From NCBI GenBank assembly GCA_018302765.1, contig JAGVZG010000003.1, forward strand, positions 11,081 to 75,080: a DNA stretch of 64,000 nt, written 5' to 3'. This stretch comes from Candidatus Woesearchaeota archaeon (GTDB lineage: Archaea; Nanobdellota; Nanobdellia; SCGC-AAA011-G17; GW2011-AR18). The position numbers were made by a program. Below, piece after piece: positions 24,001 through 30,000 of the stretch. Each line of letters begins with the position of its first letter. Within the stretch, counting starts at the first letter, position 1.

Positions 24001-27000
24001 TACTTCTTCAACATTCTCCAAAGTCTCAGATGGATAATTCCTGATTTCTTTTAATTTATATTCTTTAGAATAACTTTCTATTAATTTTTTCAAATTAGAT
24101 ATAACCTCTCCTTTAGTAGTTCCAGTAGCAGTTACTAAAAGCTCTTTGCACCTTGCAATATATATTTCCTCCTCTTCATAAATAAGTGCAGTAAAAGTTT
24201 TTATTTTCATATATGGCCATTAGAGTAAAAATTTATAAATATGCTCTTTTAAGTTTTATGAACTATAAAAACAACATATTTAAGTATTAATAATTTTGCA
24301 AGTGTATAATGAGTAAAAATCTAAATAATCTAGCTGAAGGTGCTAGCATAATATTCTTAGGGATTGCAATTTCAAAATTATTGCATTACATATACAGGGC
24401 AATTATAGCAAGAATGCTTACTCCTGGAGATTATGGTATAATAATATTAGGCATGTCGGTAATAAGTATATTTGGATGGGTTGCATTATTCGGATTAAAC
24501 CAAGCAGCAGAAAGAAACATAAGTTTTTATCACAATAAAAAAAGAGAGTTAAAAGGTGTTTTATTATCAATATTAAAATTTGGATTTCCACTGGCGCTAG
24601 TACTTTCACTACTGCTTCTAATGCTTTCAAAAGATATAAGTCTTATTCTAAAAAAAGAAAATCTAATACAAATAATCAAGATAATGTCTTTTGGAGTGAT
24701 GGGTTACTCTCTCGCAGAAATTTCAGGCTCTATATTGCGTGGTTTTAAAAAAATAAGGGAATTTGTTTATGTAAAATACATAATAGAACCTGCATCAAGA
24801 ACAATTCTGACAATAATATTTATAATACTTGGATTAAAAATTAAAGGCGCTGCAATAGCCTACATCTTAAGCCTGTTTATTTCAATAGTAATAGCCATGC
24901 TGATAATCAGAAAAACAGCATACAAAGCTATTAAAAAAATAAAAGCTATAAATATGGATTTAAAAATAATAAAATTCTCATGGCCATTATTATTCACAGG
25001 TCTAGTATTCTCAATTACAGGATGGATAGACACATTGATGATAGCTTATTTTTCAACAGAAGAATTAGTTGGTCTGTACAATACAGCACTTCCAACTGCA
25101 GGCATAATTCTTATTACTCAAAGTTCATTTGACGGAGTATTTATTCCCATTATGTCAAGGTTATTTTCAAAAAAAGACTACAAAAACATAAAAGAAAATT
25201 ACGAAAGAGTAACAAAGTGGATAACAATACTGACAATACCTTTATTCATGTCTATAATATTTTTCTCTAAGGGAATTATAAATATATTATTTGGAACGCC
25301 GTATCTAGAAGCATATAAGCCTACAATAATTCTTGCTGTGGGTTTTCTAATGGTTATGATTGTAGGTCCATGTGAAAATATGTTAAATGTAACTTTCAAA
25401 ACAAAACTAAAAATGTATCTAAGAATAATAATGTTAATTATAAATATAATATTAAATCTTATACTAATCCCAAGATATGGAATAAGCGGAGCTGCAATAT
25501 CAACATCAGTAGCACTAACATTTTATAATATATGCTGTTTTATATATGTAAAAAATAAATTCAATGTTAATATTATAAAACTAAAAACAATTTCAATTAT
25601 ATTGGCCAGTGCATTATTGCCATTATTATTAAGTATTTTATACAACCCATTAAATAAGCTTGTAACAATGTCATTCATAATATTATCTTTAATCTATTCA
25701 ACAATAATAATCATACTAATGAAATACCTAAATAAAGAAGATATAATTATTATTTACGATATAGAAAAAAAATTAAACATAAAACACACAATAAGTTCAA
25801 TATTAACAAAATACTCAAAGTAATAATCACTTAATCTTAGCAACAGCAATCCACTCATAAGGCTGCGAAGATGGTACAAGTTCTATTAATCTAAGCAGTA
25901 AATATAAAGTATAAGTAAGTATTTTTATCTTGGAAAACTTAGAGATGAATTCCTGAACCTTAAAGTGGTTTATATTATTAACTAAACTAACAACAGTAAA
26001 TTCATTATCTTCTAACTCTTTAATTATAGTTTTTTTAGTCCAGAATTCATCATAAACAGGCGAAGGATAATGTTTAGTATGCCACTTATAAATAAACCCA
26101 TTAGGAACGTCAAATATCAAATAACTATTTCTTGACATTAATTTCTTTATGCTTTTATAAAGAATTCTCCTTTTACTTATATCAAAGTGCCTAATAAATT
26201 TAAAGCTATAAACAAGATCAAATTTCTTGCCAATATTCATCTTAAAAACATCTACAACTTTCAAATTAAATCTGCCATTTAAATTAACATTAGCTATTTT
26301 CAACATTGCCTTGCTATTATCAACTGCTAATCCATACTTAAAACCATAAACATCTTTAGAAATCCTACCAGGACCTGTAGCAACATCTATAACGCTGCTT
26401 ATTTTTTTATCTCTAATGAATTTATTAATAAATGATATCTGATTGTGATGTATTAATCTCCCTAATGGCCTATTAAACCTGCTATTTATATAGTCCTTAG
26501 CTAACTTCTCATTTTCATAGTACTTCTTTATTTCATTTACTGTTTTTTTCATCTTTAAATCCGAAAAATAATTCATAAAGAACTTTTAAACCCCAAAGAA
26601 GATTAAAACCAATAAAGTAATACAATAAAAAATACTTCATAAAACCAGATAAAACAAATGAATCAATTATAGCAAATAAGAAAAAAACATTATGAAAATA
26701 AGGAATTAAAAACAAATTTTTATATGATCTAACTAATTTTTTCTTAAATGGAATTTTTGCAACATCTTTTCTAAAAGCCTTTTCAGGATGGATTTTTACA
26801 TCTTCTAATCTAACTAACTCCACCATAGAATAGCCAAAAATAGAAAAAACCCCAAAGAACAAAAATAATTTTGATTCTGTAGTCAAGAATATGCTAAAAG
26901 TTAATGCAGATAAAGGTAATAAGTAAGATAACCAAGTAGAAATCCAATCAAAAAATTCTCCCCATTTAAGAGACTTTGTCTTATTATATCTTGCAATCTC

Positions 27001-30000
27001 GCCATCCACATAATCCAATATTGCAGCTAATCCAAACAAAAATCCTCCTAACAAATAATTATTAAAAAAAATCAAAACAGAAGAAACAATAACCAAGGAA
27101 GCCCAGAAAGCAGAAACTTGGTTTGCAGTTATTGGAGTATGAACCAAGACCCAGCTTATATAAGGTGAAATATATCTATAACCCATCCAGCTGACAGTAG
27201 GGGGTTGAACAATATTTTTATATTGCTTAAAACTTACCATAAACAAAACACAGTAAATAGTCTTTTAAAACTTATGAATTTACAAACTCAAAATATTATT
27301 TAATAGATTTTCCTTAGCATAACTTCCAAAGCATCACGAGTAAGAACACGCGGATTATTTATAACTCTTTCAGGATTAAATCCTTCATTTAATACAATAT
27401 CAACGCCACTTTCAGTTACACCTAATTTTGATAATCTTCTTTCTAAACCTATTAAATCTAATAGACACTCAAGCTTATGTTTAACATATAAACAATCTGT
27501 TGTATCAAACATTAAACAAAGTTCACCCATTGTATCTAAAACATAACTTATTCCTCTTTTGTCTTGAACTGTATCTTCTTCTACTGCCCCATTATAATCA
27601 AATATAGAAGGAAGAGTTAAAGCAACTGCATGACCATGCTGCACACCAAAATGTGCACTTATTGGATAAGAAACTGAATGAGGCGCAGTTGTTCTTGCTA
27701 TATTTATTGCTTTCCCAGCAAGATTACTACCACAAGTCATAACTTCTCTGTGTTTGGCATATGGATTATTTACAACTTCATATAAAACAGGCAAAATTGA
27801 AGTAATTGCATCACTGCTATATCTCTTAGATTCGTCAGTTGATCTCACTGACCAAAAAGCTTCAATAGCCTGAGCCAGAGCATCTATGCCTGTACAAGCA
27901 GTAATATAAGGATTTAAGCTTGAAGTAAGGCCTGGATCAATAATTGCAAATTCAGGAAAAACAATTTTATTATCTAATGAATACTTTTGCTTTTCCATAT
28001 AAATAACAGCAAATTGTGTTGCTTCACTTCCAGTGCCTGCTGTAGTTGGTATAAGAATTTTAGGCAAACTTTTTCCTATTAGAGGAATTTTTTTTGTGAT
28101 TAAACTTTTATAATCATCAATTAATTGTGTAGATAAAACAGCAATGCATTTTGCAGTGTCTAAAACATTTCCACCTCCAATTCCAACAACAACATCAGCT
28201 CCACTGCTGCGTGCAATAGAAACACCTTCTGCTATAGTACCAATATTAGGCAACGAAGAAGAAACAATAAAACGATTAACGTTATAAGGCGAAAGTAAAA
28301 CATCAACAATTGGTTTAGCCCCACTAGCAACATAAGAAGTACTGCCTACAACAAGCATAACGTTTCTGCTGCCAAGAATATTTAAAGCTTTACTTAACTC
28401 TCGTACTTTCCCCCAGCCTTGATATTCAACAATTCCCAATTTCATCTCCTAAGAAAATCGCAGAAACGTTCTGTCAATTGATGAGGTGAAATTTTTTCTG
28501 TTATGCGGGACGCTTTAGGAATTTCAGAAGAAGAAACTTTTACATGTATAAAATTTGGGCCATCATTAATAAGAGATGTTTTAACAAGCTCAGATAATTT
28601 GCTAGCTGTCGTACAAAAAGCGCTGTTTCTGTAATCACAATTGAAAGCAACTTCTGAAAAATCAACAGTGCCTGACGTTGTTGGCTGACCTCCTGTTGAT
28701 TCATAAGATTCATTATCAATTACAATATGAACAAGATTTTTTGGTCTGTAGTGTCCTATTGAAGACATTACACCCATATGCATAAGCAAAGCTCCATCTC
28801 CATCAATAACAACAACTTTTTTATCTGTCGAACATGCTACGCCCAAACCTATTCCTGCTGCATGGCCCATTGATCCCTGCATATAAAAATGAGAAGTTCT
28901 GTCCTGTATTGCAAAAAGCTCACGTGAACTAGTTCCAGTAGTTGAAATAACTACAACATCTTGATTAACAGAACCAACAATAGTACATAGAGCTGTAGTT
29001 CTGCTCATTCTAAGCTTATATTCATTTTCAATAAATATATTCTTCCACTTATAATGAGGAATGTTAAAATGTCTAAAGGAATTTTCATCATGTTCTAATA
29101 CATCTTTTTTCACAACCAAAGCTACTAACTTTCTATTTTCAATAGACTCAGAATGAGCACGTTTAACACAGCCATAAGCATCAGTGTCATTCTTAGGAAG
29201 ATCATATGCAGAAATAGAAAGACTTTCAAGTATTTTACGCATTGCTTTTCCAATAATTTTATGTTGTGGTTCATCCTCTATACCATAAGCTCTTCCACTA
29301 ATAAAAAACAACATTGGTATTCCAAAAGGTATGCACAATGAAGACAAAGGATTTATTGCATTTCCTAATCCAGAATTCTGCATTATAACTACAACATTTT
29401 TTCCACCCAAATAAGCTCCTGCTGCAAAGCTTACAGCAAGTCCTTCATTAGGAGCAACAAAATAAAAAGATGTTTCATCTCTAGAAATATTATTTAATAA
29501 TGAAATAAAGTAAGAACAAGGAACTCCAGAAAAAAAACTATAACCTTTCTCTTTTAATAATTTATATAAATCAATAGATTTCATACTAATGCTTTCCTTC
29601 CTTATTGTACCAAGGAACTAATTCACCACAAACTCTTTCTAATCCACTTCTATCTAAAAGAGATAACTCATGCTGGGTATCTCCTGATAAACGTCCGCCT
29701 ATGCGCATAACTAATAATCTCCCAATTCCATTATCTGAAATAAAACGATGTTTCACACAAGGCTTCATATAAACAGAATCTCTAGGATAAATATACTCAT
29801 ACTCCACTTGTCGATCATAACTAGATTCCCAACTAAGACCAACACGACTTTCACCAATATTGTAAATATATTGATGTCCTAAAGTTTTTAAGCTTGAAGT
29901 CTCACCTGGACGTACAGTAACTTCTAATCCTTTAGAATAAGGTAACTTAGGAGTAGAAGCAAGCTCAACAAAAGTATAAAGTCCACTTTCATCTGGATAA

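What the first reader, a model, noticed from the sequence alone, without database searches (positions are those of the whole stretch)
26533..27246. CDP-alcohol phosphatidyltransferase directly downstream of the phosphonate genes: candidate phosphonate head-group transferase
Enzymes of this family transfer a substituted phosphoryl group from a CDP-alcohol to a lipid or alcohol acceptor. Next to a PntC-type cytidylyltransferase, the logical substrate is a CMP-phosphonate. The acceptor would be an archaeol-type lipid or a lipid-linked glycan, giving an archaeal phosphonolipid or phosphonoglycan. The motif is slightly degenerate: the last Asp of D-x3-D is replaced. The adjacent methyltransferase (25827-26576) could methylate the product.
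Basis: inference. Interest (0 to 1): 0.65.

Follow-up and report, generated by a model that had tools for sequence, protein, structure and literature searches.

The report
Likely methylphosphonate transferase lacking catalytic aspartate
A small membrane enzyme of the CDP-alcohol phosphotransferase family sits in a methylphosphonate-synthesis operon of a Woesearchaeote (a DPANN archaeon), and related archaea keep the same pairing, so it is the best candidate for the unknown step that attaches methylphosphonate, a methane precursor, to cell-surface glycans or lipids.

Summary
ORF 26533-27246(-) encodes a 235-237 aa, six-helix membrane protein. It passes the Pfam CDP-OH_P_transf threshold, and its model matches AF2299, IPCT-DIPPS and PIP synthase. 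It keeps 7 of the 8 signature residues; the fourth Asp, the proposed catalytic base, is Thr104.

It is not a housekeeping archaeal lipid synthase: every NCBIfam equivalog scores far below cut-off.

The upstream genes encode a PepM-nucleotidyltransferase fusion, a methylphosphonate synthase (MpnS), Ppd and an Fe-ADH. The phosphonate made is therefore most likely methylphosphonate, not 2-HEP or AEP.

All seven fully covered DPANN MpnS loci carry a CDP-OH_P_transf gene, in different positions and orientations. A Nitrosotenuis (Thaumarchaeota) cluster has sulfatase-type genes instead. Homologs also abut PepM clusters in Bathyarchaeia (HEP type) and Terriglobales (AEP type).

One counterpoint: a 60%-identical ortholog sits in the same synteny with no phosphonate cassette.

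The protein belongs to a large uncharacterized subfamily in which D4 is usually His (Thr, Ser or Gly in the nearest clade).

Best reading, with no biochemistry behind it: a CMP-methylphosphonate transferase acting on a lipid-linked glycan. I rate it a new variant of a known kind.

The parts
26533..27246 (-). Divergent CDP-alcohol phosphotransferase-family membrane protein. Likely start is the ATG at 27240 (235 aa). It has 6 TM helices and the motif D78xxD81GxxAR86-x9-G96xxxD100xxxT104.
   Evidence: ORF and sequence; Pfam PF01066 32.5 bits; AF2299 E=1.9e-7; AF2 model and Foldseek.
25827..26576 (-). Class I SAM methyltransferase that overlaps the 3' end of the transferase gene. It is a conserved partner of the transferase.
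   Evidence: Pfam Methyltransf_25/11/31. The same overlapping pair occurs in L001, L003-L006 and L090, and an MTase homolog lies about 1 kb downstream in L096.
27300..28445 (-). Fe-dependent alcohol dehydrogenase, the candidate phosphonoacetaldehyde reductase (PnAA to 2-HEP).
   Evidence: Pfam Fe-ADH and ADH_Fe_C. The best NCBIfam model is the phosphonate-associated Phn_Fe-ADH, 166 bits, below its cut-off.
28442..29584 (-). Phosphonopyruvate decarboxylase (Ppd).
   Evidence: NCBIfam TIGR03297, 360.2 bits against a cut-off of 312.5.
29586..31007 (-). Methylphosphonate synthase (MpnS). The likely start gives 450 aa, ending near 30938.
   Evidence: 432 bits (E=2e-128) to N. maritimus MpnS 6b9s, against 284 bits to HEPD 6b9r. 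The aligned H148/Q152/H190 and F162/I184 positions match MpnS, not HEPD. P0018 is 450 aa.
30928..32670 (-). PEP mutase fused to a C-terminal MobA/LicC-like nucleotidyltransferase (PntC-type).
   Evidence: Pfam PEP_mutase 159.5 bits and NTP_transf_3 37.5 bits; TIGR02320 312.8 bits against a cut-off of 319.55. The C-terminal domain hits LicC 1jyk at E=3.9e-6. The motif reads EDQVWPKRNS.
32743..33492 (-). GT2 glycosyltransferase. It forms the upstream boundary of the 5.4-kb phosphonate cassette; in L003-L006 it directly abuts the transferase gene.
   Evidence: Pfam; synteny.
24309..25823 (+). Wzx/MATE-like polysaccharide flippase, convergent with the operon.
   Evidence: Pfam Polysacc_synt, Polysacc_synt_3, MatE and MurJ.
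33449..35721 (-). A second Wzx-like flippase (33449-34729) and a Glycos_transf_4 family enzyme (34717-35721; the MraY/WecA/AglH-type polyprenyl-phosphate sugar-1-P transferase family).
   Evidence: Pfam.
50505..53144 (-). AglB/STT3 oligosaccharyltransferase. It marks the window as an N-glycosylation / surface-glycan island.
   Evidence: Pfam STT3 69.4 bits and STT3-PglB_core.

Best explanation
The gene encodes a six-TM enzyme of the CDP-alcohol phosphotransferase fold that serves as the transfer step of a methylphosphonate (MPn) tailoring pathway.

Proposed sequence of steps:
1. PepM, Ppd and the Fe-ADH make 2-HEP.
2. MpnS converts 2-HEP to MPn.
3. The nucleotidyltransferase domain fused to PepM activates the phosphonate with CTP to give CMP-MPn.
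4. The membrane enzyme binds the cytidine nucleotide through N42/S45 and the D78/D81/D100 metal site, at the cytoplasmic face of the membrane. It transfers the methylphosphonyl group to a hydroxyl of a membrane-associated acceptor and releases CMP.
5. The acceptor is most plausibly the polyprenyl/dolichyl-phosphate-linked glycan built by the surrounding genes. The glycan would then be flipped by Wzx and used by AglB.
6. The translationally coupled SAM methyltransferase modifies the same product.

What is shown: the domain identities, the fold, motif retention and loss, operon adjacency, and recurrence of the pairing in other genomes.

What is inferred: the donor identity, the acceptor, the direction of transfer, and how catalysis proceeds without the canonical D4 base. 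D4 is Thr here and His in most of the subfamily. Glu97, conserved in the closest sequences, is one candidate replacement; substrate assistance is another.
For: 1. Family and fold. Seven of the eight signature residues and the cytosine-binding N-x-x-S of TM1 are kept. N42, D78, D81, G82, A85 and R86 are invariant in both A1 and A2; G96 is invariant in A1 and D100 in A2.
2. It lies co-directionally in an operon-like array directly after PepM-NTase, MpnS, Ppd and ADH, with gaps from -4 to 53 nt.
3. Independent recurrence in MpnS-anchored look-ups. L088 and L089: transferase immediately upstream of PepM-NTase. L090: rearranged cluster with two paralogs flanking an MTase. L091 (Nanoarchaeota): after ADH and a cytidylate-kinase-like gene. 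L092 (Woesearchaeota): opposite strand after ADH. With L001 and the window this makes 7 of 7 fully covered DPANN loci, with two different cytidylyltransferase fusions to PepM (PF12804 or PF01467).
4. Non-MpnS phosphonate clusters also carry homologs: Bathyarchaeia L012 (two paralogs beside Ppd, PepM-NTase, ADH and an NTase) and Terriglobales L082 (transferase, PepM-NTase, Ppd, class-V aminotransferase, NTase). Four of 80 distant-homolog loci have PepM within 10 kb.
5. No LicD or sulfatase-family transferase is found in the 64-kb window, whereas the Nitrosotenuis (Thaumarchaeota) MpnS cluster has two sulfatase genes and no CDP-OH-PT.
6. Precedent: nucleotidyl activation is the dominant logic of phosphonate tailoring and the downstream steps are described as 'enigmatic' (PMC6697681). 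A eukaryotic CDP-alcohol phosphotransferase, EPT1, is assigned CMP-AEP + DAG to phosphonolipid in the KEGG pathway (PMC9765203).
7. Glycan context: AglB/STT3, Glycos_transf_4, two Wzx genes and many GTs.
Against: 1. D4, the proposed catalytic base, is Thr104. D93N nearly abolishes M. tuberculosis PIP synthase activity (PMC4634129).
2. The closest ortholog cluster outside the window's own (P0002, 60% identity) lies in the same synteny without the phosphonate cassette. Local phosphonate genes are therefore not obligatory partners. An MpnS contig exists in the same assembly (L125), but nothing shows it belongs to the same genome.
3. Most members of the wider D4-variant subfamily have no PepM nearby. 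Many sit beside a nucleotidyltransferase only. The subfamily as a whole is not phosphonate-specific.
4. The six-TM architecture is the one described for family members with a soluble acceptor (PMC4634129), so a lipid-linked acceptor is not implied by the fold.
5. There is no biochemical or expression evidence.
Confidence: 0.55

Rival explanations
1. It is a generic phospho-alcohol (not phosphonate) transferase of the surface-glycan pathway. It would use a CDP-alcohol made elsewhere, for example CDP-glycerol, CDP-ethanolamine or CDP-choline-like, to decorate the glycan, and the phosphonate cassette merely inserted next to it.
For: The P0002 ortholog and its MTase partner sit between the same GT2 and Wzx genes with no phosphonate cassette. 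P0004 (32% identity) lies beside a CTP_transf_3 cytidylyltransferase and a TagF-like Glyphos_transf gene. Many subfamily members are next to a nucleotidyltransferase but not PepM.
Against: All 7 fully covered DPANN MpnS loci keep such a gene despite rearrangements. The window has no other recognizable acceptor-side enzyme for the CMP-phosphonate that the PepM-fused NTase is expected to make. No separate small-molecule cytidylyltransferase lies next to the gene in the window. In the rough NJ tree, the four other sequences grouping with the window protein (L001, L003, L090a, L090b) are all MpnS-linked except L003.
Confidence: 0.25
2. It is a catalytically dead or non-transferase member of the fold, for example a CMP/CDP-binding scaffold or regulator, because the catalytic base D4 is lost.
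For: D4 is Thr104. D-to-N at D4 nearly abolishes PIP synthase activity without affecting substrate binding (PMC4634129).
Against: The other signature residues and the cytosine-binding Asn stay invariant across 16-17 divergent homologs. The D4-variant state is a property of a large subfamily: among the roughly 150 best representatives the D4 position is His in 87, Ser 9, Asp 9, Thr 8 and Gly 6. That pattern fits an altered mechanism better than decay. The gene also persists in operons.
Confidence: 0.1
3. It is a housekeeping archaeal phospholipid head-group synthase using CDP-archaeol (archaetidylinositol-phosphate, -serine or -glycerophosphate synthase). A variant of this idea has it attaching 2-HEP as the alcohol to CDP-archaeol.
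For: The best NCBIfam similarities are to DIPP synthase and archaetidylinositol phosphate synthase models. The six-TM architecture resembles the CDP-DAG-dependent enzymes.
Against: Scores are 47.7 against 580, 39.9 against 180 and 16.9 against 240. D4 is absent. The gene sits in a glycan island. The closest relatives include bacteria. MpnS removes the hydroxyl-bearing carbon of HEP, and the PepM-fused NTase points to the phosphonate, not the lipid, being nucleotide-activated.
Confidence: 0.05

Closest known systems
AF2299 and IPCT-DIPPS of Archaeoglobus fulgidus (structurally solved CDP-alcohol phosphotransferases)
   Same: They are the best sequence and fold matches. They share the six-TM core, the D1xxD2GxxAR...G...D3 metal and nucleotide site, and the N-x-x-(S/T) cytosine contact on TM1.
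   Different: The window protein has no fused cytosolic cytidylyltransferase-like domain. D4 is Thr, and the spacer between R and G is one residue longer. Identity is only 20-23%. The genomic context is phosphonate and glycan genes rather than osmolyte synthesis.
Eukaryotic Kennedy-pathway ethanolamine/choline phosphotransferases (EPT1/CEPT1) acting on CMP-2-aminoethylphosphonate
   Same: They belong to the same enzyme superfamily. The proposed logic is the same: a cytidylyltransferase makes a CMP-phosphonate, and a CDP-alcohol phosphotransferase moves the phosphonyl group to an acceptor hydroxyl (PMC9765203).
   Different: Those enzymes are described as having extra C-terminal TM helices for the lipid acceptor (PMC4634129), and they have a complete signature (the family signature is described as absolutely conserved in PMC4634129). 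Their donor is CMP-AEP. Here the protein is a 6-TM, D4-less archaeal enzyme, and the donor is probably CMP-methylphosphonate.
Bacterial phosphonyl-tailoring (Pnt) clusters: PepM-PntC fusions with LicD-like phosphotransferases (Rice et al. 2019, PMC6697681)
   Same: PepM is fused to a PF12804 nucleotidyltransferase, the cluster sits among cell-surface glycan genes, and the pathway needs a downstream transferase.
   Different: The candidate transferase here belongs to the CDP-OH_P_transf fold, not LicD. The host is a DPANN archaeon. The phosphonate is MPn rather than AEP.
The MpnS cluster of ammonia-oxidizing Thaumarchaeota: Nitrosopumilus maritimus as described in the literature, Nitrosotenuis (L093) as read here
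   Same: PepM, Ppd, ADH, MpnS and a nucleotidyltransferase are present. The literature infers that the product is an MPn ester on an exopolysaccharide (PMC9381506).
   Different: The Nitrosotenuis cluster read here (L093) has sulfatase-family genes and no CDP-OH_P_transf. The DPANN clusters have the reverse.

Membership tests
CDP-alcohol phosphotransferase family (Pfam PF01066, CDP-OH_P_transf) | The profile HMM score is above the curated gathering threshold. | tested here: met
   32.5 bits against 22, E=1.4e-7, residues 40-150.
CDP-alcohol phosphotransferase family (Pfam PF01066, CDP-OH_P_transf) | A six-TM core fold with the active site on TM2/TM3, as in AF2299, DIPPS and PIPS. | tested here: met
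   AF2 model with pLDDT 85 and pTM 0.81. Foldseek PDB hits: 4o6n E=6.6e-6, 4mnd 3e-4, 5d91 7e-4, TMq 0.61-0.66.
CDP-alcohol phosphotransferase family (Pfam PF01066, CDP-OH_P_transf) | The signature of eight 'absolutely conserved' residues, D1xxD2GxxAR...GxxxD3xxxD4 (PMC4634129). | tested here: not met
   Seven of eight are present. D4 is Thr104, and the R-to-G spacer is x9 where AF2299 has x8. Thr is conserved in P0002 and P0003. Among the ~150 best representatives the position is His in 87.
CDP-alcohol phosphotransferase family (Pfam PF01066, CDP-OH_P_transf) | The P(D/N)xx(T/S) cytosine-binding motif at the start of TM1. | tested here: met
   The sequence reads A41-N42-Q43-V44-S45. Asn and Ser are kept; Pro is replaced by Ala. 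N42 is invariant in A1 and A2.
CDP-alcohol phosphotransferase family (Pfam PF01066, CDP-OH_P_transf) | The enzyme catalyses transfer of a substituted phosphoryl (or phosphonyl) group from a CMP-linked donor with release of CMP. | not testable with these tools
   This needs an enzyme assay.
Housekeeping archaeal/bacterial phospholipid head-group synthases (AIPS NF040950, archaetidylserine synthase NF038087, PgsA TIGR00560, PssA TIGR00473, DIPPS NF041135) | The score reaches the NCBIfam equivalog cut-off. | tested here: not met
   Scores against cut-offs: 39.9/180, 16.9/240, 18.7/109, 20.8/107, 47.7/580.
Phosphonyl-tailoring transfer step (works like EPT1 with CMP-AEP, or like the LicD step of Pnt clusters) | The gene clusters with PepM and a phosphonate-type nucleotidyltransferase, and this clustering recurs across lineages. 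| tested here: met
   Window, L001, L088-L092, L012 and L082. Exception: L003-L006 lack the cassette.
Phosphonyl-tailoring transfer step (works like EPT1 with CMP-AEP, or like the LicD step of Pnt clusters) | The enzyme uses a CMP-phosphonate as donor. | not testable with these tools
   Inference from context only.
LicD-type phosphotransferase | A LicD domain is present in the protein or elsewhere in the locus. | tested here: not met
   No LicD hit in any of the 50 ORFs scanned across the window.
Methylphosphonate synthase (the neighbour gene that defines which phosphonate is made) | The protein is closer to MpnS than to HEPD, and it has the 2-His-1-Gln iron site with the Phe/Ile pair that distinguishes MpnS. 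The residue roles are from my own knowledge of Born et al. 2017, a paper not held in the library. | tested here: met
   432 bits to 6b9s against 284 to 6b9r. The aligned residues at positions 148, 152, 162, 184 and 190 are H, Q, F, I and H, as in 6b9s; 6b9r has Y and G at the Phe/Ile positions.

The most novel reading that the evidence does not exclude
A previously unrecognized subfamily of CDP-alcohol phosphotransferase-fold enzymes lacks the canonical catalytic Asp (His, Thr, Ser or Gln instead). This subfamily would be the missing 'phosphonyl transferase' of archaeal and some bacterial phosphonate pathways. In DPANN archaea it would install methylphosphonate from CMP-MPn onto dolichol-linked N-glycans or membrane lipids, using a modified catalytic mechanism. 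That would make groundwater and sediment DPANN an unrecognized source of esterified methylphosphonate, a precursor of aerobic methane.
Probability: 0.35. Interest if true: 0.8.

Novelty: new variant of a known kind. Interest (0 to 1): 0.6.

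Why it matters
How phosphonates, and methylphosphonate in particular, become attached to macromolecules is not known. Rice et al. 2019 call the steps after C-P bond formation 'enigmatic', and MPn esters are invoked to explain methane production in oxic waters.

A defined candidate transferase that co-occurs with MpnS in every complete DPANN cluster examined makes this step directly testable, by heterologous expression with synthetic CMP-MPn.

It also points to a large, uncharacterized branch of a textbook lipid-synthesis enzyme family that has given up its supposedly invariant catalytic Asp. 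And it places methylphosphonate biosynthesis in Woesearchaeota and Nanoarchaeota, outside the known Thaumarchaeota and SAR11 producers.

Tried and rejected
1. Housekeeping lipid synthase. Rejected on NCBIfam equivalog scores.
2. Recent horizontal insertion of the cassette, judged by composition. Total GC is higher in the cassette (0.33-0.35 against about 0.27), but GC3 is uniform across cassette and flanks (0.15-0.26). The difference reflects amino-acid content, so it gives no evidence either way.
3. Methyltransferase as a DhpI-like phosphonate O-methyltransferase. The PDB sequence search found only generic class I MTases at E of about 1e-3, which is uninformative.
4. The nucleotidyltransferase domain as a specific PntC. 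It matches LicC (1jyk, 3.9e-6) no better than sugar-1-P nucleotidylyltransferases (2ggo, 2.8e-6). This is compatible but not diagnostic.
5. A metagenome scan with the 16-sequence alignment A2 failed because it had no conserved stretch. I repeated it with the six-sequence alignment A3. Most of the loci returned were too short to judge context.
6. Literature. No paper in the held library links CDP-alcohol phosphatidyltransferases with PntC or PepM clusters in prokaryotes (the two hits were not opened). Born et al. 2017 (MpnS structure) is not held, so the residue roles rest on my own knowledge plus the alignment.
7. L125 and L126, two further MpnS loci, are cut by contig ends inside the cluster. 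I did not count them for or against.
8. Whether the cassette-less L003 organism carries MpnS elsewhere. The same assembly holds L125 and the GC values are similar (0.28 against 0.31), but the link is unproven.

Full report
**1. The observation**

The minus-strand ORF 26533-27246 exists. It is 237 aa from a TTG; an ATG two codons in, at 27240, gives the 235-aa protein already deposited as a 'CDP-alcohol phosphatidyltransferase family protein' of a Candidatus Woesearchaeota MAG.

- Pfam PF01066 matches above its gathering score: 32.5 against 22 bits, E=1.4e-7.
- The best solved relative by sequence is AF2299 (E=1.9e-7), then IPCT-DIPPS.
- An AlphaFold2 model built on 17 homologs is confident (pLDDT 85, pTM 0.81). 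It shows a juxtamembrane helix followed by six long helices.
- Foldseek against the PDB returns only CDP-alcohol phosphotransferases at the top: AF2299, IPCT-DIPPS, and the PIP synthases of Renibacterium and Mycobacterium.

The signature reads D78-x2-D81-G82-x2-A85-R86-x9-G96-x3-D100-x3-T104. Seven of the eight signature residues are present. The cytosine-binding N-x-x-S of TM1 is kept as A-N42-Q-V-S45.

**2. What the neighbours are**

All genes from 33492 down to 25827 are co-directional, with gaps of -4 to 72 nt apart from two start-codon-dependent overlaps: PepM-NTase/MpnS (about 80 nt as listed, about 11 nt from the likely MpnS start) and transferase/MTase (44 or 20 nt). In order:

- a GT2 glycosyltransferase;
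- PEP mutase fused to a C-terminal MobA/LicC-type nucleotidyltransferase;
- a 450-473 aa double-cupin protein;
- phosphonopyruvate decarboxylase (TIGR03297, 360 bits, above cut-off);
- an Fe-alcohol dehydrogenase;
- the transferase;
- a class I SAM methyltransferase whose start overlaps the transferase stop.

The double-cupin protein is a methylphosphonate synthase. It scores 432 bits (E=2e-128) to the N. maritimus MpnS structure 6b9s, against 284 bits to the HEPD structure 6b9r. At the positions that separate the two enzymes in that alignment it has Gln, Phe and Ile like MpnS, where the HEPD has Gln, Tyr and Gly. The roles of these residues come from my own knowledge of Born et al. 2017, which the library does not hold.

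The pathway therefore ends in methylphosphonate, not 2-HEP or AEP.

The rest of the window is a surface-glycan / N-glycosylation island. It holds AglB/STT3, a Glycos_transf_4 (AglH/WecA-type) enzyme, two Wzx-like flippases, many GT1 and GT2 genes, sugar aminotransferases, dehydratases, carbamoyltransferases and methyltransferases. None of the 50 scanned ORFs of the 64 kb carries a LicD-type or sulfatase-type phosphotransferase domain.

**3. Not a housekeeping lipid synthase**

Every NCBIfam equivalog for phospholipid head-group synthases scores far below its cut-off: DIPPS 47.7/580, archaetidylinositol-P synthase 39.9/180, archaetidylserine synthase 16.9/240, PgsA 18.7/109, PssA 20.8/107.

**4. 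Comparative genomics starting from the protein**

Close relatives are rare. An exhaustive phmmer over 1.84 billion representatives found 1076 hits at E<=1e-3, 46 at E<=1e-10, and only one at E<=1e-30, which is the window's own 50% cluster.

- P0003 (58% identity) sits in the same cluster as the window, with an extra stand-alone NTP transferase just upstream.
- P0002 (60% identity, four contigs) sits in exactly the same synteny: GT2, DegT, a 520-aa unknown, Glycos_transf_4, Wzx, GT2, transferase, MTase. The 5.4-kb phosphonate cassette between GT2 and the transferase is absent there.

This is a clean presence/absence polymorphism. It shows that the transferase-methyltransferase pair can exist without locally encoded phosphonate genes.

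The same assembly does contain a PepM-NTase/MpnS contig (L125) of similar GC, but I could not establish that it comes from the same genome.

P0004 (32% identity) lies next to a CTP_transf_3 cytidylyltransferase, a TagF-like glycerophosphotransferase and a truncated Fe-ADH.

Among 80 loci of distant homologs from GTDB species genomes, four have PepM within 10 kb:
- Bathyarchaeia L012: two transferase paralogs beside Ppd, PepM-NTase, ADH and another NTase. This is an HEP-type cluster.
- Terriglobales L082: transferase, PepM-NTase, Ppd, class-V aminotransferase and NTase. This is an AEP-type cluster.
- Two marine alphaproteobacteria, with the transferase about 6 kb from PepM.

Many others sit beside a homolog of the PepM-fused nucleotidyltransferase domain only.

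**5. Comparative genomics starting from MpnS (an independent anchor)**

I took the closest MpnS homologs and read their contigs.

- L088 and L089: a 234-235 aa CDP-OH_P_transf gene immediately upstream of PepM-NTase, MpnS, Ppd and ADH.
- L090: a rearranged cluster with two transferase paralogs flanking a methyltransferase, next to Ppd, ADH and MpnS.
- L091 (Nanoarchaeota MAG): CTP_transf_like-PepM, MpnS, Ppd, ADH, a cytidylate-kinase-like gene, then the transferase.
- L092 (Woesearchaeota MAG): the transferase on the opposite strand after ADH.

With the window and L001, seven of seven fully covered DPANN-type MpnS loci carry such a gene. This holds despite different gene orders, orientations, and two different cytidylyltransferase fusions to PepM (PF12804 or PF01467). 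These are the two fusion types that Rice et al. report as covering about 60% of PepM enzymes.

Two further loci (L125, L126) are cut inside the cluster and are uninformative.

The Nitrosotenuis cluster (L093) has no such gene. It has two sulfatase-family genes and stand-alone NTases instead, in line with what the literature describes for MpnS neighbourhoods (arylsulfatase and LicD-type genes; PMC9381506).

Retention of a gene through rearrangements is the strongest evidence available here that it works with the phosphonate pathway.

In a rough NJ tree the window clade groups with both L090 paralogs. The other MpnS-linked transferases are scattered through the same subfamily.

**6. The missing Asp is a subfamily trait**

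None of the CDP-OH_P_transf genes directly adjacent to phosphonate genes has the canonical D4:

| Locus | Residue at D4 |
|---|---|
| window, L001 | Thr |
| L090a, L091, L092, L082 | His |
| L090b | Ser |
| L088, L089 | Gln |
| L012 (two paralogs) | Glu, Asn |

L090b is read from the sequence printed. The two marine alphaproteobacterial homologs that lie about 6 kb from PepM keep Asp.

Among the roughly 150 best representatives the position is His in 87, Ser 9, Asp 9, Thr 8 and Gly 6, while D1, D2, G, A, R and D3 (D or E) stay conserved.

In canonical enzymes the eight residues are called absolutely conserved and D4 is the proposed catalytic base. D93N nearly abolishes M. tuberculosis PIP synthase activity without affecting substrate binding (PMC4634129; PMC6506517).

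This is therefore a distinct, uncharacterized branch of the family with a changed catalytic apparatus, not a decayed copy. In the window's closest sequences (P0002, P0003, P0138, P0139) Glu97, three residues before D3 on the same helix, is conserved and could substitute for D4. That is speculation.

**7. Most likely mechanism**

- Shown: domain identities, fold, motif state, operon structure, recurrence of the pairing.
- Inferred: PepM, Ppd and ADH make 2-HEP, and MpnS makes MPn. The PepM-fused NTase makes CMP-MPn, by analogy with PntC/Fom1. The membrane enzyme binds the CMP moiety and transfers the methylphosphonyl group to a hydroxyl of a membrane-associated acceptor at the cytoplasmic face, releasing CMP. 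The coupled methyltransferase then acts on the same product.

The glycan island context favours a dolichyl-phosphate-linked glycan as acceptor, flipped afterwards by Wzx and used by AglB. However, the six-TM architecture is the one described for members with soluble acceptors. A soluble sugar, or a membrane lipid, remains possible.

A precedent for this enzyme family handling CMP-phosphonates exists in the eukaryotic Kennedy pathway: EPT1 with CMP-AEP (PMC9765203).

I put 0.55 on 'phosphonyl transferase of the MPn pathway'. The rivals are a generic phospho-alcohol transferase that merely neighbours the cassette (0.25), a non-catalytic member (0.10), and a housekeeping lipid synthase (0.05).

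**8. Comparison with what is known, and novelty**

It works like the transfer step of the Kennedy and Pnt logic. By fold and HMM it belongs to the CDP-alcohol phosphotransferase superfamily, but it fails the family's textbook eight-residue signature.

I found no paper in the held library that links prokaryotic phosphonate clusters to this family. Published neighbourhood analyses name LicD-type choline phosphotransferases, sulfatases and glycosyltransferases.

I rate it a new variant of a known kind, with interest 0.6. It gives a concrete, testable candidate for the unknown attachment step of methylphosphonate. It also exposes a large D4-less branch of a well-studied enzyme family. Everything about function, however, rests on genomic context.

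Noticed in passing
window 29586-31007 (-); L091 10001-11371; L092 10001-11368: A methylphosphonate synthase with the MpnS-type Gln/Phe/Ile signature lies in a Woesearchaeota genome. Complete MpnS clusters also occur in Nanoarchaeota and other Woesearchaeota MAGs. The papers I read list Thaumarchaeota/Crenarchaeota and marine bacteria as MpnS hosts, so DPANN archaea may be unrecognized methylphosphonate producers.
   Followed up: partly
window 30928-32670 (-), motif near 32260; L088 and L089: The diagnostic PEP mutase motif EDK(X)5NS reads EDQVWPKRNS (Lys to Gln) here and in L088/L089. L001, L012, L091, L092 and Nitrosotenuis keep EDK. Strict motif filters used in surveys would drop these PepM genes.
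   Followed up: partly
window 22143-23579 (-) and 23669-23968 (+): This B12-binding radical SAM enzyme is 81% identical to its ortholog in L001, while neighbouring genes are 55-62% identical. It has weak NCBIfam similarity to radical SAM P-methyltransferases (Sden_1168, PhpK). A small 4Fe-4S ferredoxin-like ORF lies beside it. B12-rSAM or rSAM genes also flank the MpnS clusters in L088, L089 and L092. It may modify the phosphonate or the glycan.
   Followed up: no
window 18662-20443 (-): A 593-aa radical SAM protein with only weak family matches (Radical_SAM 32.9 bits; no NCBIfam model near cut-off). Its function is unknown.
   Followed up: no
window 50505-53144 (-), 34717-35721 (-), 4037-7770, 7748-9496, 13983-15716: The whole window is a glycosylation island. 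It has AglB/STT3, an AglH/WecA-type initiating transferase, three AlgX/SGNH-like proteins, two NodU/CmcH-type carbamoyltransferases, a TylF O-methyltransferase and several class I methyltransferases. This implies a heavily decorated surface glycan.
   Followed up: partly
L091 14699-15430: A cytidylate-kinase-like gene lies between the ADH and the CDP-OH_P_transf gene of a Nanoarchaeota MpnS cluster. This fits recycling of the CMP released by the proposed transfer reaction.
   Followed up: no
L090 15472-16191 (+) and 16931-17638 (-); L012 8783-9556 (-) and 9683-10702 (+): Two phosphonate clusters each carry two paralogous CDP-OH_P_transf genes. In L090 they flank a methyltransferase. This suggests two acceptors or two donors per cluster.
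   Followed up: partly
L025, L043, L066 (Candidatus Scalindua): A Ppd-like decarboxylase (41-45% identity to the window's Ppd) and, in L043, a nucleotidyltransferase lie within 2.6 kb of a canonical-D4 CDP-OH_P_transf gene. No PepM is detectable within 10 kb. This may be a different decarboxylase-derived head group.
   Followed up: no
L003 and L125 (both from assembly ERZ28563625): The cassette-less ortholog locus and a separate PepM-NTase/MpnS contig come from the same metagenome assembly and have similar GC (0.28 and 0.31). Whether they belong to one genome is unresolved, and it bears directly on the main question.
   Followed up: partly
window 35789-37348 (-), 42111-43085 (-), 46811-48277 (-), 48964-50466 (-): Four sizeable ORFs (324-519 aa) inside the glycan island have no Pfam match. 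The 519-aa one is syntenic with a 520-aa unknown in L003.
   Followed up: no
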